A stretch of DNA of 64,000 nucleotides. It comes from Dehalococcoidia bacterium. GTDB lineage: Bacteria > Chloroflexota > Dehalococcoidia > SM23-28-2 > RBG-16-64-32. A program made the position numbers and the translations under genes. Every line of letters begins with the position of its first letter. Position 1 is the stretch's first letter. Location: the NCBI GenBank assembly GCA_030649945.1, contig JAUSFE010000050.1, positions 1,859 to 65,858 on the forward strand, in the 5' to 3' direction. This document shows, piece after piece, positions 3,306 to 63,834 of the stretch. The notes below the pieces were generated by a model. The model was not told the DNA's origin, did not search any database, and was given only the letters and a program-made list of their open reading frames with translations.

Positions 3306-3420
3306 GGCCACGTTAGCGGGGCGGACACACGGATCCGCCCCTACGACCGGGCGGGCGCGGGCGGACACACGGGTCCGCCCCTACGACGGGCGGGCGCGGG
3401 CGGACACGCGGGTCCGCCCC
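3306..3420. terminator. three tandem copies of an about 39-bp GC-rich hairpin unit (GGGCGGACACACGGATCCGCCCCTACGAC) between convergent genes; likely bidirectional terminator array
   Basis: Direct tandem repeats seen in the sequence. Each unit forms the stem GGGCGGA...TCCGCCC. Lies between the DUF1326 stop (3305) and the GH15 stop (3420). Confidence 0.5.
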
Positions 3421-5237
3421 TACGCCGTGATGACCTTGCCCAGCTCGACGCTCTTGAGGGCGCGGTCAAGGTTCCTCGCGGTGTGGATGAGCGCTATGTG
3501 GGTGAACGCCTGCGGGTAGTTCCCCAGGTAATCGCCGGTCTCCGGGTCCAGCATCTCGGAGTAGAGGCCCACGTGGTTGCCCAGGCTGAGGACGCGCTCG
3601 AAGAGGTCGCGCGCCTCCTGCAGGCGTCCGGCGGCCACCAGGCTCCCGGCCAGCCAGAGGCTGCACATGGTGAAGGTGCCCTCGCGGCCCGGCAGCCCAT
3701 CGTCGGCGAGCTCGGGGAGGTAGCGATAGACGAGGCCGTCCACGCCAAGCTCCTTCCACACGGCGTCTATCGTCGCGTTCATGCGCGGGTCGTCAGCAGC
3801 CAGGAAGCCGACCATGGGGATGAAGAGCAGGCTGGCGTCCAGGCCGACGCCGCCGTAGTGCTGAATGAAGGAGCCGCGCTTGGCGTTCCAGCCGTGGGTC
3901 AGAATGTCCTGGCGGATCTCCTCGCGGGCCTTGCGCCAGCCGTCGAAGTCCACCGGCCGGCGCAGCGCTCGGGCCAGCCGCAGGCCGCGGTCCACTGCCA
4001 CCCAGGCCATGAGCTTGGAGTAGGTGAAGTGGCGGGGCCCCGTGCGGAACTCCCAGATGCCCAGGTCCGGTTCCCGCCAGCGGCGGACGGCGGCCTCCAC
4101 CAGGCAGCGCGCCACGTTCCACAGCCTCTCGTCGATGGCGCCGCCGACCCGCTGGTAGGAGTCCAGCGCCAGCATGATCTCGCCGAAGACGTCCAGCTGG
4201 AACTGATGGAAGGCGGCGTTGCCCACGCGTACCGGCCGCGAGGCGCGGTACCCCTCCAGGTGGTCAAGGGTATACTCCTCCAGCTCGTGGCCGTTCCGCC
4301 CCTCGATGCTGTACAGCGAGTGCAGGTCGCCGTTGCTCTCGCAGATCGCCAGGTTGGCGAGCCAGTCAACGAAGGGCTTGGTGTAGGTGGTGTGGCCCAG
4401 GCGGTGGAAGACGTCCATGGTGAAGGCGGCGTCGCGCAGCCAGGAGAAGCGGTAGTCCCAGTTGCGCACGCCGCCGATGCGCTCCGGCAGCGACGTGGTG
4501 ACGGCGGCGCAGACGGTGCCCGAGGGGACGTACAGGAGCAGGTGCAGCGCCAGCATGGAGCGCTTCACCACCTGCTCCCAGCGTCCGGTATAACGCCAGT
4601 CCTGCGAGACGAAGCGCCAGAACGCCTCCGTCTGGCCCAGGCGGCCGTGGACGTCGTAGCCGTCAACCGGCGGCGGCGAGTCCTGCCCCCACGCGACCAC
4701 GAACGCGGCCGATTCGCCCTGCCGTACCGTGAACCGCGCGCGGGCGGCGCCTTCCGCGGCCTCCAGATCGACCGCGGACGACAGCGAAAGGCAGCTGCGG
4801 CCGTGACGGGCCACGGCCACGCGGCTTTGAACGGAGACCTCCGTGCGGCCGCGGGCGTAGTCCAGGCGCGGCTGGAAGTGCAGGTCCATCTCCACGGCGC
4901 CCCGCTCGCAGCGCAGGAGGCGGATGAGGCTGCTTTCGCGCTGAGTGATCTGCTCGCCGACGGGCATGAAGTCGGTAAGCGTGGCGCCGCCGGAGGGGGT
5001 CTCGAACTCCGTGACCAGGACGTTGCTGTCAGGCAGGTAGCGCTGGCGGGACGTGAAGTCTCCGGGCGGGCTGACCTGGAAACGCCCGCCGGCGCCGTCG
5101 TCCAGAATGGCGGCGAAGACGCTGGGAGAATCGAAGCGCGGGAAGCACAGCCAGTCGATGGAGGCGTCAGAGCCGACGAGCGCGGCGGAATGCATATCGC
5201 CGATCACGCCGTAATCGTTAATACGCTTATACGCCAT
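3420..5237 (-). CDS. glycoside hydrolase family 15 protein (glucoamylase / trehalase-like)
   Basis: Typical GH15 N-terminus from the internal Met (MAYKRINDYGVIGDMHSAALVGSDASIDWLCFPRFDSPSVFAA). (alpha/alpha)6-barrel region motifs (WEFRTGPRHFTYSKLMAWVA). The ORF-track start at 5333 is probably a 5' extension. Confidence 0.85.
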   Translation of the reverse strand: MAYKRINDYGVIGDMHSAALVGSDASIDWLCFPRFDSPSVFAAILDDGAGGRFQVSPPGDFTSRQRYLPDSNVLVTEFETPSGGATLTDFMPVGEQITQRESSLIRLLRCERGAVEMDLHFQPRLDYARGRTEVSVQSRVAVARHGRSCLSLSSAVDLEAAEGAARARFTVRQGESAAFVVAWGQDSPPPVDGYDVHGRLGQTEAFWRFVSQDWRYTGRWEQVVKRSMLALHLLLYVPSGTVCAAVTTSLPERIGGVRNWDYRFSWLRDAAFTMDVFHRLGHTTYTKPFVDWLANLAICESNGDLHSLYSIEGRNGHELEEYTLDHLEGYRASRPVRVGNAAFHQFQLDVFGEIMLALDSYQRVGGAIDERLWNVARCLVEAAVRRWREPDLGIWEFRTGPRHFTYSKLMAWVAVDRGLRLARALRRPVDFDGWRKAREEIRQDILTHGWNAKRGSFIQHYGGVGLDASLLFIPMVGFLAADDPRMNATIDAVWKELGVDGLVYRYLPELADDGLPGREGTFTMCSLWLAGSLVAAGRLQEARDLFERVLSLGNHVGLYSEMLDPETGDYLGNYPQAFTHIALIHTARNLDRALKSVELGKVITA

Positions 5238-16555: not shown

Positions 16556-19792
<3,237 letters not shown>

Positions 19793-20664: not shown

Positions 20665-20990
20665 CGGGGTGCTGAAGAACGAGTCCTACAAACTTTTGTG
20701 TCTTCGTGTCTTCGTGGTGAGAATTCCCAGGGATCAACACGAAGGCACTACGACACAAGAGGGGTTCCTTATACAAGGGCTGGCTCTCCCCCGCCCCGCC
20801 CCGGTTGGACGCACCTGAAGGTACCTCCCTACTTTGGTGCCTTTGTGTCTTCGTGTCTTCGTGGTGAGAACTCCCAGGGATCAACACGAAGGCACTAAGA
20901 CACAATAGGGGTTCCTCATCCAAGGGCTGGGTCTCCCCCGCCCCGCCTCGGTTGGAGGCACCTGAAGGTACCTCCCTACGGGAATCCGGC
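20661..20990. repeat. two tandem copies of an about 140-bp MITE-like unit (families R7 GGTGCCTTTGTGTCTTCGTG and R3 CACCTGAAGGTACCTCCCTAC), preceded by an R2 terminal repeat (CTAGCGGGGTGCTGAAGAACGAG)
   Basis: Direct repeat copies near 20690-20830 and 20830-20975. Each has an internal inverted repeat GTGTCTTCGTG...CACGAAGGCAC. Confidence 0.8.
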
Positions 20991-23490: not shown

Positions 23491-23543
23491 TGGATCCTCA
23501 CATCGTTACGGGTGTGGCCCGTAGGGGCGAACGCCGTTCGCCC

Positions 23544-24095
23544 CTACGGGCACGCGTCCTCCGCCAGCGCGCCCATTATCACCATGTTCAGGGGCTTGCC
23601 GTGGCGCAGGCGGTGGCCGCGCAGCAGCCCCTCGCGCACGAAGCCGCACTTCTCGTAGCAGCGGATGGCGCGCGCGTTGTCCTCGTCCGCGATCAGATGC
23701 ACGCGGCGCAGCCCCAGCTCGCCGAAGGCGTGGCGCAGGAGCGCGCGGATGGCGTCGGCGCCGTAGCCGCGGCTCCAGCAGTCTTTCTCGCCGATGCTGA
23801 TGCCGAGTTCCGCGCGGCCGTGCGGGTGGATGTTCAGCAGCCCAATCTCTCCGATGGGCGTCCCGCCTTTCGTCTCGATGACCCAGGAGACGTGGCCCGG
23901 GTCGTCGCGGATGCGCTCCCAGCGCTCGCGGTGCGCCCGCAGGGAGCGCATGACCTGCGGCGGGTCCTCCGAGAGGTGGTGCCACTGGAGCACCTCGGGG
24001 TCGTTGAACCACTTGTGGAGGAGCGGCACGTCGTCGTCGCTGAACGGCCGCAGCCGCACCTTCTCGCCGGCGAGGGTCGCGGTGGGGATGGCCAT
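23544..24095 (-). CDS. GNAT family N-acetyltransferase (RimJ/RimL-like)
   Basis: 183 aa; acetyl-CoA-binding motif region RGYGADAIRALLRHAFGELGLRRVHL...NARAIRCYEKCGFVREG. Confidence 0.8.
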   Translation of the reverse strand: MAIPTATLAGEKVRLRPFSDDDVPLLHKWFNDPEVLQWHHLSEDPPQVMRSLRAHRERWERIRDDPGHVSWVIETKGGTPIGEIGLLNIHPHGRAELGISIGEKDCWSRGYGADAIRALLRHAFGELGLRRVHLIADEDNARAIRCYEKCGFVREGLLRGHRLRHGKPLNMVIMGALAEDACP

Positions 24096-36662: not shown

Positions 36663-36875
36663 CGGCGCGCGGCAGGGAACTGGGAGTCAGGAGCTGGGAA
36701 CTAGGAGCCGCCCCGCCCGCGCACGCCGTCACGCGCAGAACGCCGTAGGGGCGCACGGCGTTCGCCCCTACGTTTGCGTTGGGCCGTCGCCTGCCGCGTA
36801 AGGCCGGGCGGTTGACAGCGAGTGGGCCGGCGGTATGCTTGTAACGCGTCCCGCTTCGGCGCATGGAGGGCCACC

Positions 36876-39592: not shown

Positions 39593-41028
39593 TGGACGCG
39601 CCGCCCATCCAGTACGCGAAGACCGCCGACGGCGTCAGCATCGCCTTCTGGACGCTCGGCGAAGGCCCCCCGCTCGTGATCCTGCCCAACCTGACCGCCA
39701 GTCACGTGCAGGTGGAGTGGGAGTGGGACGTCCGCCGGATCGCCTACCAGCGGCTGGCGCAGCACGCCACGGTCATCCGCTACGATTGTCGCGGCCTGGG
39801 GCTGTCTCAGCGCGATTGCCCCGACTTCTCCGCCGAGGCAGGGGGCCTCGACCTGGAGGCCGTCGTTGACCGCCTCGGCCTGGAGCGCTTCGCCATCTAC
39901 GGCTCCGACTCCACGGGCGACGTAACTTTCGCCTTCCCCGCCGGCCATCCGGAGCGGGTGAGTCACTTGATCATCGGCGTGCCGCATATCCAGCGCGGCT
40001 TCCGCCGCCGCCTGGCCGCCGTTCAGCCGCTCATTGATCAGGACTGGGAGCTGTTCATCGAAATCTTTCCGCGGCTCGCGGGGGGTTGGGACAGCCCCCA
40101 GGCGGCCCAGGTGCCGGCTGTGATGATGGGTACGCACACGCCCTCTAGCTTCCGCTCGGCTCTCGACGCGATGGCCGCCTTCTCGCCGGAGCCCTACCTG
40201 GCGGCTATTCAGGCGCCGTCGTTGATCATGCACCCGCTGCAGAGCGGCCGGGACAACCGGACAGCGCGAGTGCTGGCGGGCGCTATCGCCGGCGCTCACA
40301 TGGTAGGAATCCCGGGCTGGCCGCTCGCCTCAACACTCAACGAGACGGCCGTTGCGGCCATCCTGGACTTCATCAATACCGCGCCGGCCGCGCCGGGCCA
40401 CGCGATCCCCGCGCCGCAGATAGACATCAGCGCCGTCCGCACCATCGTCTTCACCGATGTCGAAGGCTCCACGGCGCTCAATGAGCGGCTCGGCGACGAG
40501 GGCGCCCGGGAGGTCCTGCGCGAGCACGAGCGACTGACGCGCGAGGCGCTCGCGTCGCACGGCGGCTCCGAGGTGAAGGCGATGGGCGACGGCTTCATGG
40601 CCTGGTTCCCATCGGCGACGCGCGCTGTGGAGTGCGCCATCGCCTTACAGCAAGCGTTTGACGAACGTAATCGGAAGGTAGGGGCGCAGCAACATGAGCC
40701 AAGTAGGAAGGATATCGAATCGTCTTCCGATGTTGCTGCGCCCCTACGCACCGCCTCCCGGCCACGCCTCGACACGCCCGAACCGATCCGCGTCCGTATC
40801 GGCATCAACGCCGGGGAGCCAATTGCCGAAGGAGACGACCTCTTCGGCGCATCGGTGATCACGAGCGCCCGCATCACCGCGCAGGCGAAGGGCGGCCAGA
40901 TCCTGGCTTCGGACGTGGTGCGCCAGCTCCTCGCCGGCAAGGGGTTCCTCTTCTCCGACCAGGGCGACGTCGTCCTGCGCGGCTTCGAGGACCCCGTGCG
41001 CCTGTACGAGGTGCGCTGGCGCCAGTAG
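39592..41028 (+). CDS. alpha/beta-hydrolase + class III cyclase fusion, copy C (carries an in-frame REP-element insertion in the CHD)
   Basis: ATG overlaps the copy B stop (TGATG). CHD motifs FTDVEGST, EVKAMGDGFMAWF, GINAGEP. The hydrolase GxSxG motif is degenerate (YGSDSTG). Extra 30 aa (KVGAQQHEPSRKDIESSSDVAAPLRTASRPRLDTPEP) relative to A/B/D. Confidence 0.8.
   Translation: MDAPPIQYAKTADGVSIAFWTLGEGPPLVILPNLTASHVQVEWEWDVRRIAYQRLAQHATVIRYDCRGLGLSQRDCPDFSAEAGGLDLEAVVDRLGLERFAIYGSDSTGDVTFAFPAGHPERVSHLIIGVPHIQRGFRRRLAAVQPLIDQDWELFIEIFPRLAGGWDSPQAAQVPAVMMGTHTPSSFRSALDAMAAFSPEPYLAAIQAPSLIMHPLQSGRDNRTARVLAGAIAGAHMVGIPGWPLASTLNETAVAAILDFINTAPAAPGHAIPAPQIDISAVRTIVFTDVEGSTALNERLGDEGAREVLREHERLTREALASHGGSEVKAMGDGFMAWFPSATRAVECAIALQQAFDERNRKVGAQQHEPSRKDIESSSDVAAPLRTASRPRLDTPEPIRVRIGINAGEPIAEGDDLFGASVITSARITAQAKGGQILASDVVRQLLAGKGFLFSDQGDVVLRGFEDPVRLYEVRWRQ
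40683..40752. mobile_element. REP-like palindromic element (GTAGGGGCGCAGCA...TGCTGCGCCCCTAC, long loop) inserted in-frame inside cyclase copy C
   Basis: Same palindrome arms as the intergenic REP copies at 19843, 22568, 43255 etc. Replaces the short ESAETP linker present in copies A and B. Confidence 0.7.
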
Positions 41029-41131
41029 GGGCGAACCGCCGTTCGCCCCTACGTTTGCCTTGCGTCTTCGCCTGCCTCCACCGCACCCGGCCGGTAGCCG
41101 CGCGGCATTTGACACGGTTGCGACCAGGAGT

Positions 41132-43067: not shown

Positions 43068-43301
43068 GCGCAGCTCCGGCGTCGCCCCCCACCTCCGCCC
43101 CGCTGGAAGCCTGAAGGCATCCGCTACGTTCGCCGGCGGCAACGCGACCGCCCCGCCGGCGCGCGGCCGTCACGCCCGGAAACGCCGTAGGGGCGAACGG
43201 CGTTCGCCCAGAAACGCCGGACGGCCAAACGCGGTTCGCCCACACAAACGCCGTAGGGGCGCAGCATGCTGCGCCCCTACGTTCGTGTCGCGAGTCTCGC
43301 G

Positions 43302-44939: not shown

Positions 44940-45025
44940 CCTACGGTCGGGTGGATGGAGGTTGGAGGTTGGACGTTGGATGGCTGAATCCGGTCCAACC
45001 TCTATTCTCCAACCTCTAACTTCTA
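44940..45025. repeat. imperfect long hairpin built of GGTTGGAGG repeats (family R6) in the groES-groEL intergenic spacer
   Basis: GGAGGTTGGAGGTTGGACGTTGGA...TCCAACCTCTATTCTCCAACCTCT; the same family is inserted in purM at about 63000-63060. Confidence 0.6.
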
Positions 45026-45026
45026 A

Positions 45027-45368
45027 CTAGGCCAGCTTGGCCAGGACGTCGGACTCCTTGAGGATCATGTAGTCTTCCTCGTCGCCGAAGACGCCGCGGG
45101 GGACGTCCTGGCCGCTGTACTTGGCGTAGAGGACGCGGTCCCCGACCTTGAGGTCGATGATGACGCGCTTGCCGTTGTCGTCCAGACGGCCGGGGCCGAC
45201 GGCGATCACCTGGCCCAGCTGCGGCTTCTCGCGGGCGGTGTCGGGGATGACGAGGCCGCTGGCGCGCACCTCGTCCTGGCGGGTCTGTTTCACGACGACA
45301 CGGTCGCCCAGGGGTACGACCCTGGGTGCAGCCGCGCGGGCGGGCTTGCTCTTGGTGGCGGTAGCCAT
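45027..45368 (-). CDS. groES: co-chaperonin GroES
   Basis: 113 aa; PLGDRVVVK...GLVIPDTAREKPQ.GQVIAVG is the canonical GroES sequence. Confidence 0.95.
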   Translation of the reverse strand: MATATKSKPARAAAPRVVPLGDRVVVKQTRQDEVRASGLVIPDTAREKPQLGQVIAVGPGRLDDNGKRVIIDLKVGDRVLYAKYSGQDVPRGVFGDEEDYMILKESDVLAKLA

Positions 45369-45852: not shown

Positions 45853-46124
45853 GCGCAAGAGACAGGGTCATGGGGGCGGGAGGCAGGCCTGCCTGGCCGG
45901 CAGGCAGGCGCTAACCGGTGGCGAGCAGGACTATCGCCGCCCGCGCGTTGCCCGGGACCGCCCCACGCCACCCCGTAGGGAGGCACCCTTCGGCAGGCTC
46001 AGGGCAGGCTCTGAAGGTACCTCCCTACGGGAATCTGGCGGACTCAGCTCGCGCTGCGCGTTCCGCTTCCTCACCCCGGCGCGGCGCCGCCAGCGGGGGG
46101 CCGGCTGCCGCCTGCCAGCCCCCG

Positions 46125-47279
46125 GCGCTCTGCGAGCGCGACCTGGCCCGGCTCTGGGAGGGGCAGCGCTTCCCGCCGGAGGCCCTGCGCACGCGCGGCG
46201 GCGAGCGGCTGCGGGTGATCTACCGGGGGCGCGCCGGCAGCGGGCCGGGGCCGGACTTCAGAGACGCGGTCATCGCCACGCCGCAAGGGCTCTTGCACGG
46301 GGACGTGGAGCTGCACGTGCGCACGTCTGACTTCCGCCGCCACGGCCACGGGCGGGACCCCGGATACGACGGGGTGGCGCTGCACCTGGTGTTCTGGCAC
46401 GACGAGGCCGAGGATACGCTCCTGGCCAGCGGGCGCAGGGTACCGGTGGTGGGGCTGGCGGACTGGCTGGCGGAGCGCACGCGGGAGATCCAGGGCTGGC
46501 TGTCACGCCCGGCGCAGTGGCAGGAGCCCTGCCGGAGCGCCGTGGAGCGCCTGGGAGCGGACGCGGTGGGGGCGGCCCTGGACGCGCTGGGGGAGCGGCG
46601 CTTCCAGCAGCTGCGGGACGGCTGGCGGGTCCGCCTCAGGCGGAGCGGCGACGGCGAGGAGCTGCTGTGGGCGGGGCTGCTGGAGGGGCTGGGCTACGGC
46701 GGCCAGAGGGAACTCTGGCGGCTGCTGGGCGGCAGGCTGGCCTGGGCGCAGCTGCGGCCGGAGATCATGGCGCAGGAGCGGCGCGAGCGCCTGGGGGCGG
46801 CCCGCCGCCTGCTGTGCACGGCCGCGGCAGGCCTGCCGTGCCGCGTCCGCAGCGCGGGCGTGCGGCCCGGCAACCGGGTGGAGCTGCGGCTGGAGGCGGC
46901 GGCGCACCTGGCGGTGCGCTTCGCGCCGGGGGGACTGGCGAGCGCCCTGCTGGCGCCGCTGGCCGGGCCGCCCGCCGGGGCCCAGCGCGAGCTGGCGCGG
47001 GCCCTGACCGTGCACGGACTGATTGGGCCGGCGCGGGCACTGGAGCTGCTGGCGAACGCGGTCCTGCCCCTGGCCGCCGAACTGGGCGGCGCCGCCGCCG
47101 AGGCGACGGCGCGGGCGATCTACGCCCGCCTGCCGCTGCCGGCGCGCTACGGGTCGCTGCGCCACCTGCACCGGGCTGCCGCCGCCGTGCCCGTGAACAT
47201 GCGCCGCCAGCAGGGGATGCTCTACCTGCTCAAGCACTACTGCACGCAGGGTGGCTGCGGCAAGTGCCCGCTGTCGTAG
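46125..47279 (+). CDS. DUF2851 family protein
   Basis: ERDLARLWEGQRF...GPDFRDAVIATPQGLLHGDVELHVRTSDFRRHGH... matches the DUF2851 N-terminal pattern. True start uncertain (probably non-ATG near 46125); the ORF-track start at 45918 runs through R3/R5 repeat copies. Confidence 0.55.
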   Translation, partial: ALCERDLARLWEGQRFPPEALRTRGGERLRVIYRGRAGSGPGPDFRDAVIATPQGLLHGDVELHVRTSDFRRHGHGRDPGYDGVALHLVFWHDEAEDTLLASGRRVPVVGLADWLAERTREIQGWLSRPAQWQEPCRSAVERLGADAVGAALDALGERRFQQLRDGWRVRLRRSGDGEELLWAGLLEGLGYGGQRELWRLLGGRLAWAQLRPEIMAQERRERLGAARRLLCTAAAGLPCRVRSAGVRPGNRVELRLEAAAHLAVRFAPGGLASALLAPLAGPPAGAQRELARALTVHGLIGPARALELLANAVLPLAAELGGAAAEATARAIYARLPLPARYGSLRHLHRAAAAVPVNMRRQQGMLYLLKHYCTQGGCGKCPLS

Positions 47280-47487: not shown

Positions 47488-48192
47488 CTAACCGCCCAAC
47501 TGGACGGCCGCGCCGGGCGCCGGACACCCCGCCGCCTGGCTGACGGGCAGGTCTACCAGGTCTCGGGCGGTCTTCTGGGCGTCGCCGATCGTGACGCCGT
47601 TCTGGCAGTCCAGGTCGCCCCAGAGGCGGGACGTGCCGTCCACCGTCACTGCCGCCCCGGGCGCCGGGCAGCCAGGGCCCTGGGTGATGGGGATGTCTAC
47701 CAGGTCGCGGGCGATCTTCTGGGCGTCGCCGATGGTGATGCCGCTCTGGCAGTCGAAATCGCCCCAGAGGCGGCCGGCGGGCGTCGCCGTAGGTCCGGCC
47801 GTGGGGCTCGGCGCCGTCGTTGGGCTGGGGCTCGGCCCAGCGGGGAAGTCCGCCGCATCGCCGGGCCAGGTGTGGGCGTTTATCTCGGCGATGTTGGTGG
47901 CGCCGTCGCCGTCAGAGTCCAGGTTCTCCACCGCTGTCAACGCCGGATCGATACCGAGACCGATGTGGCCCTTGACGGCATCGCCATAAGTGTTCCAGTC
48001 GCCCGTGTCACCGGAGACATGGCAGGCGTCGCAACTGTTTAGCTTGGTACCGGTGAGGTTGTACTTGTTGACGAAAGCGGTCCTGTAGCTGCCCAAGCCC
48101 AAGACGGAGGATCCCGTCAGCAACGCCGCCGTGACTACGACTCCCGCCACCACCAGCAAGACAGCGAGACGACCTCGGTTCGTGGTCATATC
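47488..48192 (-). CDS. secreted protein with one CxxCH motif and three dockerin/EF-hand-like Ca-binding repeats
   Basis: Signal/TM MTTNRGRLAVLLVVAGVVVTAALL. CDACH. DSDGDGATNIAEI. Two repeats of GD(F/L)DCQ.G(I/V)TIGDAQK.ARDLVD. Confidence 0.6.
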   Translation of the reverse strand, partial: DMTTNRGRLAVLLVVAGVVVTAALLTGSSVLGLGSYRTAFVNKYNLTGTKLNSCDACHVSGDTGDWNTYGDAVKGHIGLGIDPALTAVENLDSDGDGATNIAEINAHTWPGDAADFPAGPSPSPTTAPSPTAGPTATPAGRLWGDFDCQSGITIGDAQKIARDLVDIPITQGPGCPAPGAAVTVDGTSRLWGDLDCQNGVTIGDAQKTARDLVDLPVSQAAGCPAPGAAVQLGG

Positions 48193-49284: not shown

Positions 49285-49289
49285 GGTGG

Positions 49290-49385
49290 GTAAGGGTCAG
49301 GGGTCAAGATCAAGGGTCAAAGGGTCAAAGGGTCAGGGGTCACGACGTCACTGTCCACTGTTCACTGTCCACTATTCACTATTCA
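49290..49385. repeat. heptanucleotide microsatellite block: (GGGTCAA/GGGTCAG)x6 followed by (CACTGTC/CACTGTT/CACTATT)x5, immediately upstream of the tsaD start
   Basis: Seen directly: GGGTCAGGGGTCAAGATCAAGGGTCAAAGGGTCAAAGGGTCAGGGGTCA ... CACTGTCCACTGTTCACTGTCCACTATTCACTATTCACT. Confidence 0.8.
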
Positions 49386-50027
49386 CTAGTCCTGCGCCAG
49401 GAGGAGCGCGGCGCAGTTGGGCAGCGCGCGCGCCCGCTTGTAGACGGCGGGCAGCGCGTCCTCCGGGGGCAGGGCCAGGGCGGCGGCAAGCTCGGCGGCG
49501 GGAACGGTCTCCAGAAGGGCCGGCGTCAGCAGGAGGAGGCGGAACCCGGCGGCGAGCTCGAGGCGGGAGAAGTCCGGCCAGAACTCCTCGAACAGGCCCA
49601 GCGGCTCGAGGGCGTCCGGCAGCGCGGGCCGCCGCAGTTCGAGGGCGCCGTCGCGGTAGATTACGGCGGCGGCGGGGCCTACCTGCGCCAGGTAGCCCGC
49701 GCGCCCCTGGACGGCGACGCAGGAGACGCCGGCAGCCACGCGGCTGTCCTTCATGCTGCGGCGGTTCCAGTCGCGCAGGTTCTCGTGAGCGGAGCGCAGG
49801 GCGCCCAGGATGCCGCCGGTGAGGGAGACCCTGTTCTTGTGAAAGACGGCGCCGATGGCCTCCTTCATCTCGGCGCAGAACTCCTCGCTGCCGGGCAGCG
49901 CGGGCTCGACGATGAGGTAGAGGTCCGACGGCTCCTCGGTGCGCCCGGGGTCCGGGAAGGCGCCCACCCAGGGCGTCTCCTCGCGCGCCTCCCCGTCGGC
50001 GATGCCGAACTGCCCGACCCAGAGCAT
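49386..50027 (-). CDS. hypothetical protein (about 213 aa)
   Basis: Start at MLWVGQFGIADGE; no confident domain assignment; the ORF-track extension to 50156 enters the repeat-rich spacer. Confidence 0.5.
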   Translation of the reverse strand: MLWVGQFGIADGEAREETPWVGAFPDPGRTEEPSDLYLIVEPALPGSEEFCAEMKEAIGAVFHKNRVSLTGGILGALRSAHENLRDWNRRSMKDSRVAAGVSCVAVQGRAGYLAQVGPAAAVIYRDGALELRRPALPDALEPLGLFEEFWPDFSRLELAAGFRLLLLTPALLETVPAAELAAALALPPEDALPAVYKRARALPNCAALLLAQD

Positions 50028-50029
50028 GG

Positions 50030-50500
50030 TGCGATTATACGGGAGGCAGGAGGCGGGAAGTAGGAAGCGGGAAGGGGGAAGGTTCACCACGAAGACATAA
50101 AGGCACCAAGCTTGCAGATTACTCGCGCGATTCTTCCCTTCCGGCCAGAATGACAATGCCAGGGGAAAGTGGCACTAGACCCGGCGACCGAAGTCGATCC
50201 TGGAGTTCATCGGCCAGCGCCCTCAGAGTGGCCGTTGCCGCCTGTCATCCTGTCCGCAGACAGGATCCGGCGGGGCGGTGGGGTGTAGCTGCGGTTCGAC
50301 ATGATGTAAACGTGGTAGCGGCGGCTGGATGTATGGCTCATGCCTTCACAGTTGCGGTGCGTTCGCGCACCCCCACCAGATTCTGGCTGCGGCCAGAATG
50401 ACAACGATCTGCCACACCCCTTCTGTTTTATCGGAGAAACGCAAGATACAAGAATGACAGAAGGGGAGGGACGAGAACTCGTTTCCAGCACCCTGATAGC
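50030..50500. repeat. about 470-bp non-coding spacer composed of dispersed repeat families R7 (CCACGAAGACATAAAGGCACCAAG), R4 (CCAGAATGACAA x2, AGAATGACAG) and an R2 terminal repeat (GGACGAGAACTCGTTTCCAGCACCCTGATAG)
   Basis: Each motif has near-identical copies elsewhere in the window (51655-51725, 54390, 54620, 6446). Confidence 0.6.
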
Positions 50501-54236: not shown

Positions 54237-54710
54237 AGACGCCCCGGCGGGGCGTCTCAGGCGCTCGTAGTGGGTACGCCGCGCTGTCTGCCCTGCGCCC
54301 CGACCACCTGGCTTCACCTCCCCACCGCCCCAGATTCCTTCGCGAAGCTACGTGTCAGCCGCGCTCAGGCGCCATCTCGCTCAGAATGACAGGGTGCGTT
54401 CGCACGGCGCTCATTACCCGCGCAGCAGCGGTGGTAGAGACGCCCCGCCGGGGCGTCTCAGGCGCTCGTCGTGGGTACGGCGCGCCGTCTGCCCTGCGCC
54501 ACGGCCGCCTGGCTTCACCTCCCCACCGCCCCAGATTCCCCTTCGGCTGCGCTCAGGGCAGGCTTCGCGAAGATGCGCCTTCGCTCCGAAGGATGTCGAT
54601 ACCGCTCAGAATGACAGATCGTGCGTCGCGGCGCCGCCGCCGGGTGCGGTGAGGCCGGCGCTCAGAACGACGAAGGCCGCCGGGAGGGCGGCCTTCGCCC
54701 GGTTGTCAGC
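54237..54710. repeat. about 200-bp tandem duplication (units starting near 54233 and 54432) carrying the perfect hairpin GAGACGCCCCGGCGGGGCGTCTC and R4 motifs. The second unit has a nested R5 insertion (CTTCGGCTGCGCTCAGGGCAGG). Ends with the terminator hairpin AAGGCCGCC-GGGAG-GGCGGCCTT
   Basis: Direct repeats seen in the sequence, between the convergent FtrC-like and desulforedoxin genes. Confidence 0.7.
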
Positions 54711-60306: not shown

Positions 60307-61917
60307 TTAGTGCCGGAAGGCCCGCGTGCCGGTGAAGACCATGGCCACGCCGTACTCGTTGCACACCGCCACCGCCTCCTCGTCACGGACGCCGCCGCCG
60401 GGCTGGATGACGGCGGTGACACCCGCCCGGCACGCCGCCTCGACGGCGTCGCCCCGCGCGAACGGGAAGAAGGCATCGGACGCGAGCACCGCGCCCTGCG
60501 CCCGCTCGCCGGCGCGCTCGATGGCCTGCTGCGTGGGCCAGAGGCGGTTGGGCTGGCCGGCGCCGATGCCGACGGCGGCCCCGTCGCGGGCGACGACGAT
60601 GGCGTTGGACCGGACGTGCTTGAGCGCGGTCCAGGCGAAGCGCAGGTCCGCCAGCTCGCCGGCCGTGGGGGCCCGCTTTGTGACCACGCGCAGCTCCAGT
60701 TCGTCCGCGCGGCGGGTGTCCCGCTGCTGGACGAGCATGCCACCGATGATGCTGCGGTATTCGAGCGCCGGGCTCCCGCGCTCCGCCTCCCCTTTGGACA
60801 GACCTGAAGGTGTGTCCCTACGGTTGCTCGCGGGCGCTGCTGCTCCTTCGATGAGCAGGATGCGCAGGTCGCGCCGTTTTCGCAAGCGCTCCAGGGCGGC
60901 GGCGTCGTAGGCCGGCGCGACGATGATGTCGTAACGCTTGCCCTTCATCGCCTCGGTCATGTCCCAGGTGACGGGGCGGTTGGCGGCGATGATGCCGCCG
61001 AAGGGCGAGACGGGATCGCAGTCATAGGCACGCTCGTAGGCGACGGCGATGTCGGCGTGGGAGGCGATGCCGCAGGGCGTGGCGTGCTTGACGATGACTA
61101 CCGTGGGGCCGGCGAACTCGGTGGCCGCGCGCCAGGCGGCGTCGGCGTCGAGGTAGTTCAGGTAGGACATCTCCAGGCCGTGCAGGCGCTCCGCCGCCAG
61201 CAACCCCGTGGCCGGCCCCGGGGCGTCTTCCCGGTAGAGCGCCGCCTTCTGGTGGGGGTTCTCGCCGTAGCGCAGCTCCGCCGCCTGCTGGAGGCCGACC
61301 GTGACCTGCGGCGGAAAGAGCGGCTCGCCCGCGCGCAGATACTGCGCGATGGCCGTGTCGTAAGCGGCGACGTGCTGGAAGGCCTTGGCGGCGAGGCCCC
61401 GGTGGTACTCCGCGTCATCGGGGCTGGGGCCCTGATCTACGGAAGCGCGCAGGTGGTCCAGGGCCTGCTCATAGTCGGCGGGGTCTACGACGACGAGGAC
61501 GGACGGGTGGTTCTTGGCGGCGGCGCGCAGCATGGCCGGCCCGCCGATATCGATGTTCTCCAGCGCCTCCTCGACCGTGACGCCGGGCCGGGCGATCGTT
61601 TCGCGGAAGGGGTAGAGATTGACGCAGACGAGGTCTATGGGCGGGATCTCGCTGCGGCGCAGCTCCTCCATGTGCTCCGGCTTGTCGCGCCGGGCCAGGA
61701 TGCCGCCGTGGACCATGGGATGCAGCGTCTTCACGCGGCCGTCCAGGATCTCCGGGAAGCCGGTGAGCGACGAGACCGAGTGGACGGGGAGGCCGGCCTC
61801 CTCCGCCAGGTAGCGCTGCGTGCCGCTGGTGGAGTAGATATCGAAGCCCAGCTCCGCCAGGCCGAAGGCGAACTCCTTGAGGCCGGTCTTATCGTAGGGC
61901 GCGAGGAGGGCGATCAT
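60307..61917 (-). CDS. purH: bifunctional AICAR transformylase / IMP cyclohydrolase PurH
   Basis: MGS-like N-terminal domain (MIALLAPYDKTGLKEF...), KTLHPMVHGGIL, C-terminal AICARFT domain; carries an about 20-aa in-frame insert (see repeat at 60775-60850); the ORF-track 5' extension to 62244 is rejected. Confidence 0.85.
   Translation of the reverse strand: MIALLAPYDKTGLKEFAFGLAELGFDIYSTSGTQRYLAEEAGLPVHSVSSLTGFPEILDGRVKTLHPMVHGGILARRDKPEHMEELRRSEIPPIDLVCVNLYPFRETIARPGVTVEEALENIDIGGPAMLRAAAKNHPSVLVVVDPADYEQALDHLRASVDQGPSPDDAEYHRGLAAKAFQHVAAYDTAIAQYLRAGEPLFPPQVTVGLQQAAELRYGENPHQKAALYREDAPGPATGLLAAERLHGLEMSYLNYLDADAAWRAATEFAGPTVVIVKHATPCGIASHADIAVAYERAYDCDPVSPFGGIIAANRPVTWDMTEAMKGKRYDIIVAPAYDAAALERLRKRRDLRILLIEGAAAPASNRRDTPSGLSKGEAERGSPALEYRSIIGGMLVQQRDTRRADELELRVVTKRAPTAGELADLRFAWTALKHVRSNAIVVARDGAAVGIGAGQPNRLWPTQQAIERAGERAQGAVLASDAFFPFARGDAVEAACRAGVTAVIQPGGGVRDEEAVAVCNEYGVAMVFTGTRAFRH
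60775..60850. mobile_element. family-R3-like repeat (GACCTGAAGGTGTGTCCCTACGG) inserted in-frame within purH
   Basis: Encodes the extra segment AAPASNRRDTPSGLSKGEAERGSPA, which is absent from canonical PurH. Motif matches the intergenic copies at 20950 and 46010. Confidence 0.55.
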
Positions 61918-62369
61918 CCGACGGTGATCTCCCCGCCGCCCTCTTCTTCGCCGTACTCCTCCAGGAACTCGTCCGCCACCTCTTCGTCCACCTCGCCGGT
62001 GCCGTCGCAGAGGGGGCAGGTGACCTTGCCGGGCGTGCGCTCGTCCAGGCCCTGGTACTCCATGAGCTTGCCTTGCTCCACCCAGATGTAGGTGCGGTCG
62101 GGGTCGTAGCCGCCGACGCCCTCGACCGGGTGCGCCTCCCCATCCTCCTCCACGATGTGGACCTCTCTGCGGTCGCTCAGGTGGTCGCGGAAGAAGGCTT
62201 CCAGGGCGCCGGACTCGCTCTTGGCCTCCACCTCTTCCTCCCACTCCGTCTCAGACACGTACTCCGCGTTCGCGCGGTAGAGGCGCGCGGCGGCCGTGAC
62301 CATGGACGGGTCGCGGGCGGCGGGATGGTTCACCTCGCGCTCGGCGTAGTAGATGCGGTAGGTAGGCAT
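61914..62369 (-). CDS. hypothetical acidic protein (151 aa) translationally coupled to purH
   Basis: Stop overlaps the purH ATG. C-terminal CPLCDGTG and a poly-E tail. No family assignment. Confidence 0.5.
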   Translation of the reverse strand: MPTYRIYYAEREVNHPAARDPSMVTAAARLYRANAEYVSETEWEEEVEAKSESGALEAFFRDHLSDRREVHIVEEDGEAHPVEGVGGYDPDRTYIWVEQGKLMEYQGLDERTPGKVTCPLCDGTGEVDEEVADEFLEEYGEEEGGGEITVG

Positions 62370-62406
62370 TGTCCAGGTGTCAGGTGTCAGGTGACAGGTG
62401 TCAGCA
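62370..62406. repeat. heptanucleotide repeat (CAGGTGT/CAGGTGA)x4 directly abutting the start codon of the 61914..62369 gene
   Basis: TGTCCAGGTGTCAGGTGTCAGGTGACAGGTGTCAGC seen in the sequence. Confidence 0.75.
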
Positions 62407-62722
62407 GCGGCGATGCCAGGAGCAAGAGTGGTTCGAACGGGCGAAGCTGGCCGGTACCGCGGTCAACTTCAAGAAGGAGGCCCATCAGCGTCGATAGGCC
62501 AAGGACCGCTCCATTCGCGTCCTCGGAGACCGAGAAGGAGGCGATGCTCGAGTGCCCTTCGCGGCGGAATGTGGCGTAAGAATCAGAAAGCCCCAGTTCT
62601 TCCACGAGTGCGCGCGGCAGGATGGCGATGGGGTGGTTCACATCAACCGTCGCATCGATGGTTGTGCAGCGTCCGGGCGATCGAGGGTTGCTGATCGTCA
62701 CCTGCAGTGTCACGTGTCCCAT
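62387..62722 (-). CDS. hypothetical protein (111 aa)
   Basis: ORF track; no recognisable motif; stop overlaps the heptanucleotide repeat. Confidence 0.35.
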   Translation of the reverse strand: MGHVTLQVTISNPRSPGRCTTIDATVDVNHPIAILPRALVEELGLSDSYATFRREGHSSIASFSVSEDANGAVLGLSTLMGLLLEVDRGTGQLRPFEPLLLLASPLLTPVT

Positions 62723-63834
62723 TCTACTCCGTTGCCCTTCACCACCTCGCCGATCTTGCGCGCCTCTGGCAACTGCGACTGCACGCCGGCCGCGTCCGCC
62801 GGCGCCACGGCCAGGACGATGCCCACGCCCATGTTGAACGTGCGGAACATCTCCTCTTCGTCGATGCCCCCGTGCTCCTGGATCAACCTGAACAGCGCCG
62901 GCACACGCCAGGCTGAGCGGTCGATGTGCACGCCGAGGCCGGCGGGCAGGATGCGCGGGACGTTGCCGGGGATGCCGCCGCCGGTAATGTGGGCGATGCC
63001 TCTGATTGGAGGTTGGAGGTTGGAGGTTAGAGGTTGGAGGTTAGACCCTTCGGCTGCGCTCAGGGCAGGGGTTGGAGGTTGGAGCAGCGGGCGCAGGTCT
63101 GGCAGGTAGCAGCGGTGGGGCGCCAGGAGGGCGTCGCCGAGGCTGCCCTCCAGGCCCGGGAAGTTCGAGTTGAGGACGGCGCGCTCGGCCCCGGCGTCGC
63201 GGTCCAGGCCCACGCCGAAGACCTTGCGCACGAGCGAGTAGCCGTTGGTGTGCAGGCCCCTGGAGGGCAGCGCCAGGAGGACATCGCCCGCGCGGATGCG
63301 GGAACCGTCAATCACCGCGTCGCGCTCGACGACGCCGACGATGAAGCCAGCCAGGTCGAAGTCACCCTCGGCGTAGGTGCCGGGCATGTCCGCCGTCTCG
63401 CCGCCCAGGAGCGCGCAGCCGGCCTCGCGGCAGGCCTCCACGCAGCCGCGCACGAGGTCGGCCTTGGCGTCGTCGCTGAGGCCGCAGTTGCCGATGTAGT
63501 CCAGGAAGAAGAGGGGCTCCGCGCCGGCCGTCAGGATGTCGTTGACGCAGTGGTTGACGAGGTCGTGGCCGACGGTGTCGTAGCGGCCGAGCAGCGAGGC
63601 GAGCTTGACCTTGGTGCCCACGCTGTCCGTGCTGGCCACGAGGACCGGCTCGCGGTAGGCGCCGAGGCGGAAGAGGCCGGCGAAGGGGCCGACGTCCGCC
63701 AGCACCTCCGGCCGGCGCGCGCTCTTCGCCAGCTCCGCGATGCGCGAAACCAGCCGCTCGGCAGCGTCGATGTCCACGCCGGCGGCGGCGTAGGAAGGGC
63801 GCGGAGTCTCGGTCACGCGCGTATTATCCCGCAA
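62710..63834 (-). CDS. purM: phosphoribosylformylglycinamidine cyclo-ligase (AIR synthetase) PurM
   Basis: AIRS N- and C-domains (VASTDSVGTKVKLA, GHDLVNHCVNDIL, GYSLVRKV, IAHITGGG); contains an in-frame repeat insertion at about 63000-63070. Confidence 0.85.
   Translation of the reverse strand: MRDNTRVTETPRPSYAAAGVDIDAAERLVSRIAELAKSARRPEVLADVGPFAGLFRLGAYREPVLVASTDSVGTKVKLASLLGRYDTVGHDLVNHCVNDILTAGAEPLFFLDYIGNCGLSDDAKADLVRGCVEACREAGCALLGGETADMPGTYAEGDFDLAGFIVGVVERDAVIDGSRIRAGDVLLALPSRGLHTNGYSLVRKVFGVGLDRDAGAERAVLNSNFPGLEGSLGDALLAPHRCYLPDLRPLLQPPTPALSAAEGSNLQPLTSNLQPPIRGIAHITGGGIPGNVPRILPAGLGVHIDRSAWRVPALFRLIQEHGGIDEEEMFRTFNMGVGIVLAVAPADAAGVQSQLPEARKIGEVVKGNGVEWDT
63000..63070. mobile_element. 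family R6 + R5 repeat (GGTTGGAGGTTAGAGGTTGGAGGTTAGACC CTTCGGCTGCGCTCAGGGCAGG GGTTGGAGGTTGGAG) inserted in-frame within purM
   Basis: Encodes RPLLQPPTPALSAAEGSNLQPLTSNLQPP between the conserved LAPHRCYLPDL and IAHITGGG; same motifs occur intergenically at 44950 and 54540. Confidence 0.6.

What the first reader, a model, noticed from the sequence alone, without database searches (positions are those of the whole stretch)
63000..63070. Dispersed repeat (GGTTGGAGG family + CTTCGGCTGCGCTCAGGGCAGG) inserted in-frame in purM
PurM contains about 20 extra residues (LQPPTPALSAAEGSNLQPLTSNLQPP) between two universally conserved segments. These residues are encoded by repeat motifs found intergenically at 44950-45030 (groES-groEL spacer), 54540 and 45990.

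This is the second case of a housekeeping enzyme tolerating an in-frame MITE insertion.
Basis: seen in the sequence. Interest (0 to 1): 0.6.

Follow-up and report, generated by a model that had tools for sequence, protein, structure and literature searches.

The report
Nested tiny DNA repeats inside purM
An essential purine-synthesis gene carries an in-frame 69-base passenger, a run of 7-base repeats with a 24-base hairpin module inserted in it, and near-identical copies of that module occur in many bacterial phyla, including inside other essential genes.

Summary
purM (62710..63834, minus strand) encodes 23 extra residues in a loop that is 12-14 residues long in other PurMs. The AlphaFold model shows the extra part as a low-confidence coil.

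The extra DNA is two nested repeats, not a MITE. One is a CCTCCAA heptanucleotide tandem array (63005-63045 and 63070-63084). The other is a 24-nt module, CCTGCCCTGAGCGCAGCCGAAGGG (63046-63069). Removing exactly 24 nt restores the heptamer register here and in three unrelated loci.

The closest PurM relative (82% aa identity) has no insert. A 72%-identical ortholog carries the same composite, identical over 59 nt, although the genes are only 74% identical. Across 120 relatives this one loop holds different heptamer arrays, GTAG palindromes or nothing.

The module has sharp 24-26 nt borders. It occurs in at least 120 genome stretches from many phyla. It lies in frame in IleRS of this window, and in ValRS, PheT, ribosomal protein S7 and other PurM loops elsewhere.

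The best reading is a tolerated passenger insertion of very small repeats, closest to the cyanobacterial "small dispersed repeats" embedded in heptamer arrays. How the module moves is unknown.

The parts
62710..63834 (-). purM (AIR synthetase), an intact 374-codon ORF that hosts the insert.
   Evidence: TIGR00878, E 3e-103. PDB PurM hits. The AF2 model matches PurM structures with TM 0.8-0.89. The purF..purM-AspProtease-like-151aa-purH synteny is shared with relatives.
63005..63045 (-). Heptamer array on the 3' side of the module in the coding sense: TCTAAC CTCCAAC CTCTAAC CTCCAAC CTCCAAC CTCCAAT. It encodes SNLQPLTSNLQPP(I).
   Evidence: TRF period 7, 5.3 copies, 93% matches. Codon view. It is 21 nt (3 units) longer than the array in L001.
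63046..63069 (-). 24-nt module CCTGCCCTGAGCGCAGCCGAAGGG. It encodes PALSAAEG and is inserted inside the heptamer array.
   Evidence: An exact 22-nt copy elsewhere, with 0 expected by chance. Deleting exactly 24 nt restores the period-7 register, 6 of 7 matches across the junction. The unit has sharp borders in 123 instances from other genomes.
63070..63084 (-). Heptamer array on the 5' side of the module in the coding sense: CTCCAAC CTCCAAC C. It encodes LQPPT.
   Evidence: TRF period 7. Codon view.
54539..54564 (-). Intergenic copy of the same module. The 24 nt are identical to the purM copy and carry the 5' AG tag. It lies next to sister modules of the GTCATTCTGAGCG.. type.
18971..18994 (+). 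Copy of the module inside ileS: CCTGCCCTAGGCGGAGCCGAAGGG, encoding PALGGAEG. It is an in-frame 8-residue insertion.
   Evidence: A 3-mismatch match. An exact 8-residue gap against T. thermophilus IleRS 1ile. The ORF is 16556..19792.
45986..46008 (-). A 23-nt variant of the module. It sits in the loop of a long hairpin: CCCGTAGGGAGG..CCTCCCTACGGG.
   Evidence: As DNA, 45955-46040 folds at -24.1 kcal/mol, z = -3.55.
44953..45028 (.). The same heptamer family (TTGGAGG / CCTCCAA) as an inverted pair of arrays. It forms a hairpin in the groES-groEL spacer.
   Evidence: The DNA fold gives z = -2.9.

Best explanation
The extra PurM loop is a tolerated passenger with no role in PurM chemistry. It is the in-frame translation of two nested classes of very small repeated DNA.

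Step 1 (shown by comparison). A CCTCCAA heptanucleotide tandem array occupies a permissive helix-to-strand loop of PurM. Three heptamers make 21 nt, or 7 codons (PPTSNLQ). The array can therefore change length only in 3-unit steps if the frame is to survive.

Step 2 (shown). A discrete 24-nt module, CCTGCCCTGAGC-GNA-GCCGAAGGG, was inserted into that array without a target duplication. Its inner part has a GC-GNA-GC mini-hairpin. Its outer stem covaries among sister modules.

Why it is tolerated (shown or inferred from the sequence).
- Both parts add multiples of three nucleotides.
- The frame in use has no stop codon.
- The purM insert has no strong predicted secondary structure.
- The model places the extra residues in a low-confidence coil, which suggests a flexible loop.

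Step 3 (inferred). Array length changes by replication slippage. The module spreads by a copy-and-paste process that favours DNA prone to being single-stranded, such as heptamer arrays and hairpin loops. The process might use an HUH/RAYT-like single-strand transposase or template switching. The enzyme is unknown.

The window and L001 share an identical composite. This is best explained by recent acquisition of the composite as a unit, by lateral transfer or copying. Common descent explains it poorly.
For: **The insert is real and in frame**
-.

**It sits in a low-confidence coil**
- Residues 252-276 are coil. The 10-residue blocks 251-260 and 261-270 have mean pLDDT 56 and 47. The coil lies between helix 244-251 and strand 277-282.
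- This segment is 12-14 residues in 48 of the 53 distant PurMs where it could be located, against 35 here.

**The order of events**
- Relatives carry the array without the module at the same site: L004, P0003 and P0048.

**The module is a discrete insertion**
- Deleting exactly 24 nt, and no other length from 23 to 30, restores the heptamer register. This holds in window/L001, L080, L101 and L087.
- Across 123 instances, conservation stops abruptly outside positions -2 to +23.

**The insert is not ancestral**
- The sister, P0002/L005, is 82% identical in protein and 84% in DNA and has no insert.
- The window and L001 inserts are identical over 59 nt. Gene-wide identity is 74%, and 60% at third codon positions. 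Identity drops at the insert borders.

**Length changes keep the frame**
- The window array is exactly 21 nt longer than the L001 array.

**Repeats flow into coding DNA generally**
- The same PurM loop holds at least 5 different heptamer-encoded peptides, GTAG palindromes or nothing. These states are scattered over the PurM tree.
- Three other PurM loops carry the module family in reverse orientation.
- The module is in frame in IleRS here. Elsewhere it is in frame in ValRS, PheT, ribosomal protein S7, an integrase and a flavoprotein.

**Hairpin character**
- The loop triplet is G-N-A in 91 of 123 instances.
- The outer stem is fully complementary in 59% of 29 sister modules, against 32% +/- 5% after re-pairing the partners.
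Against: - No enzyme, target rule or presence/absence pair in near-identical genomes was found. Mobility is therefore inferred from patterns.
- Nearest-neighbour folding does not rate the 24-nt module as unusually stable, z about 0 to 0.5.
- Contiguous flanking stems are only weakly enriched: 20% against 12% with stems of 6 bp or more.
- The window and L001 share even the variant unit TCTAAC next to the module. Stepwise independent insertion in both lineages is therefore unlikely, and the route of sharing is unresolved.
- The PurM tree is a neighbour-joining tree without support values.
- Whether this PurM is active was not tested.
Confidence: 0.78

Rival explanations
1. The repeat is a functional RNA or DNA signal, not a passenger. 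In the mRNA the CCUCC-containing heptamers match the anti-Shine-Dalgarno core. They could pair with GGAGG ribosome-binding sites or with the TTGGAGG arrays and so tune translation or mRNA stability in the purM operon. Selection on the nucleic acid would explain the 59-nt identity.
For: - The insert is 100% identical at the DNA level between genes that are 74% identical.
- The same heptamer forms a stable hairpin just upstream of the groEL start, next to its GGAGG site.
Against: - The insert is absent in the closest relative and in many others.
- Other lineages have unrelated heptamers without CCTCC at the same site, such as CACTCAG, CTCCGAC and ACTCGCA.
- The purM insert itself is not structured, z = 0.27.
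Confidence: 0.1
2. The loop is an adaptive, lineage-specific protein feature, for example a docking or regulatory loop of PurM, that happens to be repeat-encoded.
For: - The ORF is intact and the insert is kept in frame in two lineages.
- RPE-bearing Rickettsia enzymes remain active, sometimes with altered kinetics (PMC2229807).
Against: - Length and sequence are hypervariable at the protein level across relatives. The insert is absent in the sister.
- Conservation is at the DNA level, not the protein level.
- The model shows a low-confidence coil.
- The same module encodes unrelated peptides in other frames and in other proteins.
Confidence: 0.05
3. The heptamer array makes purM a contingency (phase-variable) locus. 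Slippage by one or two units shifts the frame and switches purine synthesis off and on.
For: - Seven is not a multiple of three.
- The array has 6.4 units in total, of which 5.3 are uninterrupted.
- Only a 3-unit difference is seen between the two alleles.
Against: - No frameshifted allele was seen among the homologs.
- purM is a housekeeping gene in a conserved operon.
- The units are imperfect and interrupted by the module, which lowers slippage.
- The pattern fits purifying selection on the frame equally well.
Confidence: 0.04
4. The insert is an assembly or binning artefact, a chimeric join through repeats.
For: - The source is a metagenome-assembled genome.
- The exact protein was seen on one contig only.
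Against: - The insert is in frame and has correct PurM sequence on both sides.
- An almost identical composite is present in another assembly, and in an independent Logan assembly of a sequencing run, L001 and L002.
- Many relatives carry related inserts at the same site.
Confidence: 0.02

Closest known systems
Small dispersed repeats (SDR) of filamentous cyanobacteria. Source: Elhai et al. [quoted passage not shown] The paper is not held in the library. Its content is given from my own knowledge. The citation was seen in PMC3116915 and PMC4390886.
   Same: - Units of 21-27 nt, dispersed, with precise borders.
- A hairpin-type secondary structure supported by compensatory changes.
- Often embedded inside tandem heptamer arrays or mini-transposons.
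- Precise insertion without obvious duplication. PMC4390886 notes that SDR5 inserts precisely between nucleotides 3 and 4 of HIP1.
- The mobilising machinery is unknown.
   Different: - The hosts here are Chloroflexota (a Dehalococcoidia-type MAG) and at least seven other non-cyanobacterial groups.
- Sequence identity to SDR1-8 could not be checked.
- The module is found in frame inside essential protein genes.
- Nearly the same 24-mer is shared across phyla.
Rickettsia palindromic elements (RPE), inserted in frame in protein genes. Source: Ogata et al. 2000, as reviewed in PMC2229807.
   Same: - A repeat is translated in frame inside conserved housekeeping proteins. 19 genes were reported.
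- The host enzyme was still active in the one product tested, guanylate kinase.
- From my own knowledge, the RPE insertions lie at surface sites of the host proteins.
   Different: - RPEs are 105-146 bp long palindromes restricted to Rickettsia.
- Here the units are 7-nt tandem repeats and a 24-nt module.
- The distribution here spans several phyla.
REP / GTAG-tagged palindromes and REPINs mobilised by RAYT transposases (PMC3733652, PMC3116915).
   Same: - Short (20-40 bp) hairpin repeats.
- Reported in Chloroflexi.
- Some lie inside genes and are translated.
- The window has its own GTAGGGGCG..CGCCCCTAC family, including a copy inside ileS.
- The same PurM loop holds such a palindrome in L208.
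   Different: - The purM module has no GTAG or CGTC tag. It has a 5' AG.
- It has only a short stem.
- It is not arranged as inverted pairs.
- No RAYT gene was linked to it.
Heptanucleotide tandem repeats: cyanobacterial STRR, and heptamer long simple-sequence repeats (summarised in PMC4679880).
   Same: - Tandem 7-nt units in many arrays per genome.
- Slippage-prone.
- Specific heptamers are shared between distant lineages. CCTCCAA arrays are also read through in small ORFs of Moorea and Tepidiforma.
   Different: - Those arrays are described mainly between genes.
- Here one lies inside an essential ORF, where only 21-nt steps are allowed.
- Different heptamers replace one another at the same codon position across relatives.
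Bacterial MITEs such as Correia/NEMIS, ERIC, RUP and Nezha (PMC2229807, PMC10969869).
   Same: - Non-autonomous small repeats.
- Some are fused in frame to ORFs.
   Different: - MITEs are about 100-200 bp or more, with terminal inverted repeats and usually a target duplication.
- None of these features is present in the purM insert.

Membership tests
Bacterial families are about 100-200 bp (PMC2229807). | tested here: not met
   The module is 24-26 nt. The whole composite is 69-80 nt and is made of two unrelated repeat types.
   The flanks are direct heptamers. The DNA fold of 62995-63095 gives z = 0.27 on the coding strand and -0.85 on the + strand.
   Removing exactly 24 nt restores the heptamer register with nothing left over, in 4 independent arrays.
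   The window was not screened for transposases. The whole genome is not available.
Small dispersed repeats (SDR, Elhai 2008) | A unit of 21-27 nt, highly repeated and dispersed, with precise borders. | tested here: met
   Three 24-nt copies plus one 23-nt variant lie in 64 kb. At least 120 genome stretches carry it. Information content falls to about 0 outside positions -2 to +23.
Small dispersed repeats (SDR, Elhai 2008) | Embedded within tandem heptamer arrays or mini-transposons. | tested here: met
   Heptamer-embedded copies: purM, L001, L080, L087 and L101. Copies inside TGTCATTCTGAG..CTCAGAATGACA elements: L009 and L118.
Small dispersed repeats (SDR, Elhai 2008) | A shared secondary structure supported by compensatory changes. 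| tested here: inconclusive
   The outer 3 bp are complementary in 59% of 29 sister modules, against 32% +/- 5% after re-pairing. The loop is GNA. The predicted energy is not better than shuffles and the sample is small.
Small dispersed repeats (SDR, Elhai 2008) | Mobility shown by filled and empty sites in close relatives. | tested here: inconclusive
   Arrays with and without the module exist at the same PurM site (L004 against window and L001). However, the genomes are only about 75-80% identical in this gene. No near-identical pair was available.
Small dispersed repeats (SDR, Elhai 2008) | Sequence belongs to one of SDR1-8, with a cyanobacterial host. | not testable with these tools
   The paper and its sequences are not held.
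REP / REPIN (RAYT-associated) | A GTAG or CGTC tetranucleotide tag at one end of a 20-40 bp palindrome. | tested here: not met
   The module is preceded by AG, with G in 115 of 123 and A in 86 of 123 instances. It is not a full palindrome. A separate GTAG family does exist in the window.
REP / REPIN (RAYT-associated) | A linked RAYT (Y1 HUH transposase) gene. | not tested
   No search for RAYT genes was made. It would need complete genomes.
RPE-type in-frame repeat insertion | The repeat is translated in frame within conserved proteins at structurally permissive sites. | tested here: met
   PurM. IleRS. ValRS, PheT and S7.
RPE-type in-frame repeat insertion | A 105-146 bp palindromic element specific to Rickettsia. 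| tested here: not met
   The sizes are 24 nt and 7-nt units, and the host is a Chloroflexota MAG.
Heptanucleotide tandem repeats (STRR-like) | At least 3 tandem copies of a 7-nt unit, with several arrays per genome. | tested here: met
   Period-7 arrays with 3.6 or more copies lie at 44956, 49288, 49349, 50040, 62374 and 63006. A seventh, with 2.1 copies, lies at 63070.

The most novel reading that the evidence does not exclude
The 24-nt unit AG-CCTGCCCTGAGC-GNA-GCCGAAGGG may be a pan-bacterial, ultra-small mobile module. On this reading it is copied without target duplication into DNA that tends to be single-stranded, such as heptamer arrays and hairpin loops.

Its length is a multiple of three and five of its six frames are open. 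It could therefore repeatedly seed 8-residue loops in essential proteins, including PurM, IleRS, ValRS, PheT and S7.

Its near-identity across Acidobacteriota, Chloroflexota, Planctomycetota, Bacteroidota, Proteobacteria and Nitrospirota would imply one of two things. Either a conserved, still unidentified mobilising machinery exists, or the module is exchanged frequently between phyla. Either way, the cyanobacterial SDR phenomenon would become a general feature of bacterial genomes.
Probability: 0.35. Interest if true: 0.8.

Novelty: new variant of a known kind. Interest (0 to 1): 0.6.

Why it matters
It is already known that repeats can be translated inside housekeeping enzymes, as in Rickettsia RPEs and intragenic REPs. 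Three things here go further.

1. The smallest class of dispersed repeat, about 24 nt and previously described as SDRs in cyanobacteria, also exists outside cyanobacteria and sits nested in heptamer arrays there too.
2. Nearly the same 24-mer occurs across many phyla and lands in frame in aminoacyl-tRNA synthetases, a ribosomal protein and PurM.
3. One PurM loop has been occupied again and again by three different repeat classes. This gives a natural series of filled, differently filled and empty sites.

That series, together with the precise 24-nt excision signature, makes two long-open questions testable. One is how such tiny elements move. The other is how often they create new protein loops.

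There is also a practical point. These inserts inflate apparent protein divergence and create spurious low-complexity segments and ORFs in metagenome annotation.

Tried and rejected
- **Degenerate codon scan.** A pattern for the PurM left flank found nothing in metagenome contigs.
- **PurM-based scan.** The follow-up scan returned only distant PurMs, at most 62% identical. They served only as a length baseline. No near-identical strain was found, so polymorphism could not be tested.
- **Peptide search for other hosts of the composite.** A 41-aa idealised query found only small ORFs that read through CCTCCAA arrays in Moorea and Tepidiforma, and no other host protein.
- **Rfam.** No family reached gathering score in the window. 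None overlapped the module in 8 loci at E <= 1. The module is therefore not a described RNA family.
- **Literature search by sequence.** Fragments of the motif gave only chance hits in primer lists. The key SDR paper is not held.
- **Thermodynamic folding of the isolated module.** It was no better than shuffles. The standard parameters may not capture GNA-loop or sheared G-A stability, so this is not decisive.
- **The idea that the module always sits in the loop of a flanking hairpin.** Contiguous flanking stems of 6 bp or more occur in 20% of instances against 12% in controls. This holds only for a subset.
- **The idea that the module is generally linked to heptamers.** Strict period-7 runs flank only a few of 116 instances, mostly in Chloroflexota. 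The link is lineage-specific.
- **Exact insertion junction in the L030 propeller repeats.** Comparison of paralogous repeats shows a net gain of 24 nt, but the junction is ambiguous.
Full report
**1. What is in the window**

The ORF 62710..63834 on the minus strand is PurM, AIR synthetase. It matches TIGR00878 at E 3e-103 and PDB PurM structures down to E 2e-89.

Against Geobacillus PurM (2z01) there is a 21-residue gap opposite query residues 252-272. The gap lies between ...HRCYLPDLRPL and IRGIAHITGGG.

Read codon by codon, the extra DNA is:

CTG [CTCCAAC CTCCAAC C][CCTGCCCTGAGCGCAGCCGAAGGG][TCTAAC CTCCAAC CTCTAAC CTCCAAC CTCCAAC CTCCAAT]C AGA

This is a tandem heptamer array with a 24-nt block inside it. 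The array is 63005-63045 plus 63070-63084 (TRF period 7, 5.3 copies, 93% matches). The block is 63046-63069.

Three heptamers make 21 nt, which is why the peptide repeats as PPTSNLQ.

- An exact 22-nt copy of the block lies at 54541-54562, and a 3-mismatch copy at 18971-18992. Chance expects none.
- The heptamer recurs at 44953-44982 with an inverted partner reaching 45028. The motif gives 8 overlapping matches, all in this spacer or the purM insert, against 0.03 expected.
- That site lies in the groES-groEL spacer.
- A 23-nt variant of the block lies at 45986-46008.

**2. Where the insert sits in the protein**

An AlphaFold2 model built from a 46-sequence alignment has mean pLDDT 76. It matches solved PurM structures at TM 0.8-0.89.

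Residues 252-276 form a coil. The 10-residue blocks 251-260 and 261-270 have mean pLDDT 56 and 47. The coil lies between helix 244-251 and strand 277-282.

In 80 more distant PurMs, the segment between P-x-R-x-Y and G-x-AHITGGG could be located in 53. It is 12-14 residues in 48 of those 53. Here it is 35.

**3. Relatives**

The source is a Dehalococcoidia-type metagenome-assembled genome (P0001, 100% identity). The 120 closest PurMs are about 70-82% identical over aligned positions. At exactly this loop they show a striking variety:
- no insert (P-V-L-P-K/Q-L-x-G);
- LQPPTSNLQPP;
- other 7-residue-periodic peptides (LHSAPGTQHSA, LAPDTSHLTP, LPSSSFPLPS, LNSQLST...);
- VGAPLAAPSRSGAQRAAPL-type peptides;
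- in P0023, LQPPTPALSAAEGSNLQPP.

DNA from syntenic loci confirms the following:
- These peptides are translated heptamer arrays of different sequence: CTCCAAC in L004, CTCCGAC in L006, ACTCGCA in L007 and CACTCAG in L209.
- L208 has a GTAG-type palindrome dimer that includes GGGGCGCTTCGCGAAGCGCCCCTAC.
- L005 and L210 have empty sites.

A neighbour-joining tree with the insert columns removed pairs the window with P0002, which has no insert. P0002 is 82% identical in protein and 84% in DNA. The tree scatters the LQPPTSNLQPP type over at least five clades, mixed with empty and differently filled sites. The tree has no support values, but the window-P0002 pairing also follows from plain identity.

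**4. The insert has its own history**

L001 (P0023) is 72% identical to the window PurM in protein and 74% in DNA, with 60% identity at third codon positions. Yet it carries the same composite with 59 consecutive identical nucleotides. Identity falls back to the gene-wide level in the first codons on either side.

If those sites had diverged like the gene's third codon positions (60% identity), 59 of 59 matches would be vanishingly unlikely. The composite was therefore acquired recently in at least one lineage, or is held constant by something acting on the DNA.

The only difference between the two alleles is 21 nt, exactly three heptamers. That is the only kind of slippage step that keeps the frame.

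L001's allele is also present in an independent Logan assembly, L002. This argues against an assembly artefact.

**5. The 24-nt block is a discrete, widespread module**

Hits came from:
- Acidobacteriota, the majority, including the isolate Edaphobacter aggregans;
- Chloroflexota (Dehalococcoidia, Anaerolineae, Chloroflexaceae);
- Planctomycetota, Bacteroidota, Alphaproteobacteria, Nitrospira and Myxococcota;
- Desulfovibrionales and Thermodesulfobacteriota.

A position-by-position count over 123 instances shows that the free positions are also conserved:
- A at -2 in 86 instances;
- G at -1 in 115;
- G at +23 in 118;
- the central triplet is G-N-A in 91.

Conservation vanishes immediately outside these positions. 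The unit is therefore 24-26 nt with sharp borders, and its centre reads GC-GNA-GC.

Among sister modules that share the inner CTGAGC-NNN-GC-(N)-GAAG, the three outer positions on each side are complementary in 59% of 29 cases (ATC/GAT, GTC/GAC, ACC/GGT...). After re-pairing the partners the figure is 32% +/- 5%. This is modest evidence for a hairpin with a covarying stem.

Standard folding energies do not single the module out.

No Rfam family covers it. No paper in the library contains the sequence.

**6. It behaves as an insertion**

The module lies inside heptamer arrays of unrelated sequence in four independent cases: window/L001, L080, L101 and L087. In each, deleting exactly 24 nt restores the period-7 register across the junction (5-6 of 7 matches). 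Deleted lengths from 23 to 30 nt were tried, and apart from 24 nt none gave more than 4 of 7.

So the array came first, the module was inserted into it, and no target duplication was made.

**7. Coding genes are hit repeatedly**

In this window, IleRS (16556..19792) has an exact 8-residue gap against T. thermophilus IleRS opposite PALGGAEG. That peptide is the 3-mismatch module copy at 18971-18994.

IleRS also contains a perfect 28-nt GTAG palindrome at 17222-17249, encoding VGALREAPL.

Elsewhere the module lies in frame, in either orientation, in the following proteins:
- a ValRS, where it is again flanked by heptamers (NLQ-PFGGAQGR-PPMPNIQYPIPNIQ);
- a PheT;
- a ribosomal protein S7 from a Pirellulales genome;
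- a tyrosine recombinase;
- an HI0933-like flavoprotein;
- three blades of a Saprospiraceae propeller protein.

Three other loops of PurM homologs carry 7-8-residue inserts. Their DNA is the same module family in reverse orientation:
- CCCTTCGAGAGCCTCAGGGCAGGCT
- CCCTTCGACAGGCTCAGGGCAG
- CCCTTCGACCGGCTCAGGTCGAACG

By inspection, the forward frame CCT GCC CTG AGC... gives P-A-L-S-x-A-E-G. One forward frame contains TGA. The other four frames are open.

**8. Interpretation**

The best-supported reading is a passenger: two nested classes of very small repeats occupying a permissive PurM loop.

*Shown*
- The anatomy of the insert.
- The order of events, array first and then the module.
- The 24-nt precision.
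- The absence of the insert in the nearest relative.
- The DNA-level identity with a distant ortholog.
- The recurrence of such inserts in many proteins and phyla.

*Inferred*
- Slippage governs array length.
- The module is copied by a process that prefers single-stranded or slipped DNA.
- The shared composite was moved as a unit.

*Weaker rivals*
- An RNA-level role for the CCUCC heptamers.
- An adaptive protein loop.
- Phase variation of purM.
- An assembly artefact.

**9. Comparison with known systems**

The MITE label fails on size, terminal inverted repeats and target duplication.

The closest described system is the SDR family of Elhai et al. 2008. Its features are units of 21-27 nt, hairpins supported by compensatory changes, and nesting in heptamer arrays or mini-transposons. 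I give these from my own knowledge because the paper is not held. The citation and the precise-insertion property appear in PMC3116915 and PMC4390886. Whether this module is one of the named SDRs could not be tested.

In-frame tolerance parallels Rickettsia RPEs, which were found in 19 genes (PMC2229807). It also parallels intragenic REPs, which have been reported in Chloroflexi (PMC3733652).

Heptamer arrays are a known abundant class of repeat and are thought to arise by slippage (PMC4679880). Finding them inside an essential ORF, limited to 21-nt steps, is unusual.

**10. Verdict**

- Novelty: a new variant of a known kind. It is SDR-like and RPE-like, occurs outside cyanobacteria and Rickettsia, and involves a module shared across phyla.
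- Interest is moderate to high. This rests mainly on the generality of the 24-nt module and on the natural series of filled and empty sites in PurM.

Noticed in passing
window 18971-18994 (+), inside ileS 16556..19792: The same 24-nt module, with 3 mismatches, lies in frame in IleRS and encodes PALGGAEG. It gives an exact 8-residue gap against T. thermophilus IleRS (1ile).
   Followed up: yes
window 17222-17249 (+), inside ileS; also 18785-18811: A perfect 28-nt palindrome, GTAGGGGCGCTTCGCGAAGCGCCCCTAC, is translated in frame as VGALREAPL within IleRS. A degenerate second copy, GTAGGGGCCGTTCGCGAACGGCCC, lies further on in the same gene. No check was made that relatives lack them.
   Followed up: partly
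window 23521-23547, 36745-36771, 41025-41052, 43187-43215, 43253-43280, and CCCCTAC ends at 896, 1119, 1331, 3344-3423, 22588, 40747: A GTAG-tagged REP-like palindrome family, GTAGGGGCG..CGCCCCTAC, has at least 8 copies in 64 kb. A closely related element fills the PurM loop in L208.
   Followed up: partly
window 49288-49392, 50040-50081, 62374-62404: Further heptamer arrays of other sequence are present. GGGTCAA x7.9 lies directly next to CACTGTC x6.1. CGGGAAG x6 is another. CAGGTGT x4.4 overlaps the 3' end of the Asp-protease-like ORF (62387..62722) and the spacer before the next gene.
   Followed up: no
window 725-1379, 20695-20979, 47507-47773: Long tandem repeats are present: 223 bp x3, 147 bp x1.9 and 144 bp x1.9. 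Their nature is unknown. The 223-bp unit ends in a ..GCGCCCCTAC motif.
   Followed up: no
L087 (Anaerolineae ValRS) and L064 (Anaerolineales PheT): Both synthetases carry several repeat-derived inserts. ValRS has a roughly 50-residue segment that includes VLSLSKG, a sister module. PheT has VTQSPSH heptamer-encoded repeats and a 10-residue tandem repeat, SSRATAEGRQ x3.
   Followed up: partly
L030 (Saprospiraceae), propeller-repeat protein: Three of about 13 blades have YD-PSASLRAGS-xSF instead of YDG-xSF, a net gain of 24 nt from the module in reverse orientation. This reflects either three separate hits or blade duplication after a single hit.
   Followed up: partly
L128 (metagenome PurM, 62% identity): The same PurM loop reads ILGRVEAVREPPLLK. 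This looks like the translation of a GTAG-type palindrome in a much more distant PurM. The DNA was not inspected.
   Followed up: no
P0121, P0122, P0124 (Moorea, cyanobacteria) and P0123 (Tepidiforma): Small annotated 'proteins' are read-throughs of CCTCCAA heptamer arrays (NLQPPTS repeats). The same heptamer is therefore used by cyanobacteria and Chloroflexota.
   Followed up: partly
L007 and L211: Two different purM genes, P0013 and P0090, come from one NCBI assembly (GCA_040961615.1). Its contig numbering runs beyond 200,000. The 'genome' is probably a mixed or unbinned assembly.
   Followed up: no
window 60307..62244 (-) and 45918..47279 (+): The longest ORFs of purH and of the gene downstream of groES begin with Arg/Gly-rich or repeat-encoded N-terminal stretches. 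These are probably not translated. The true starts likely lie further in.
   Followed up: no
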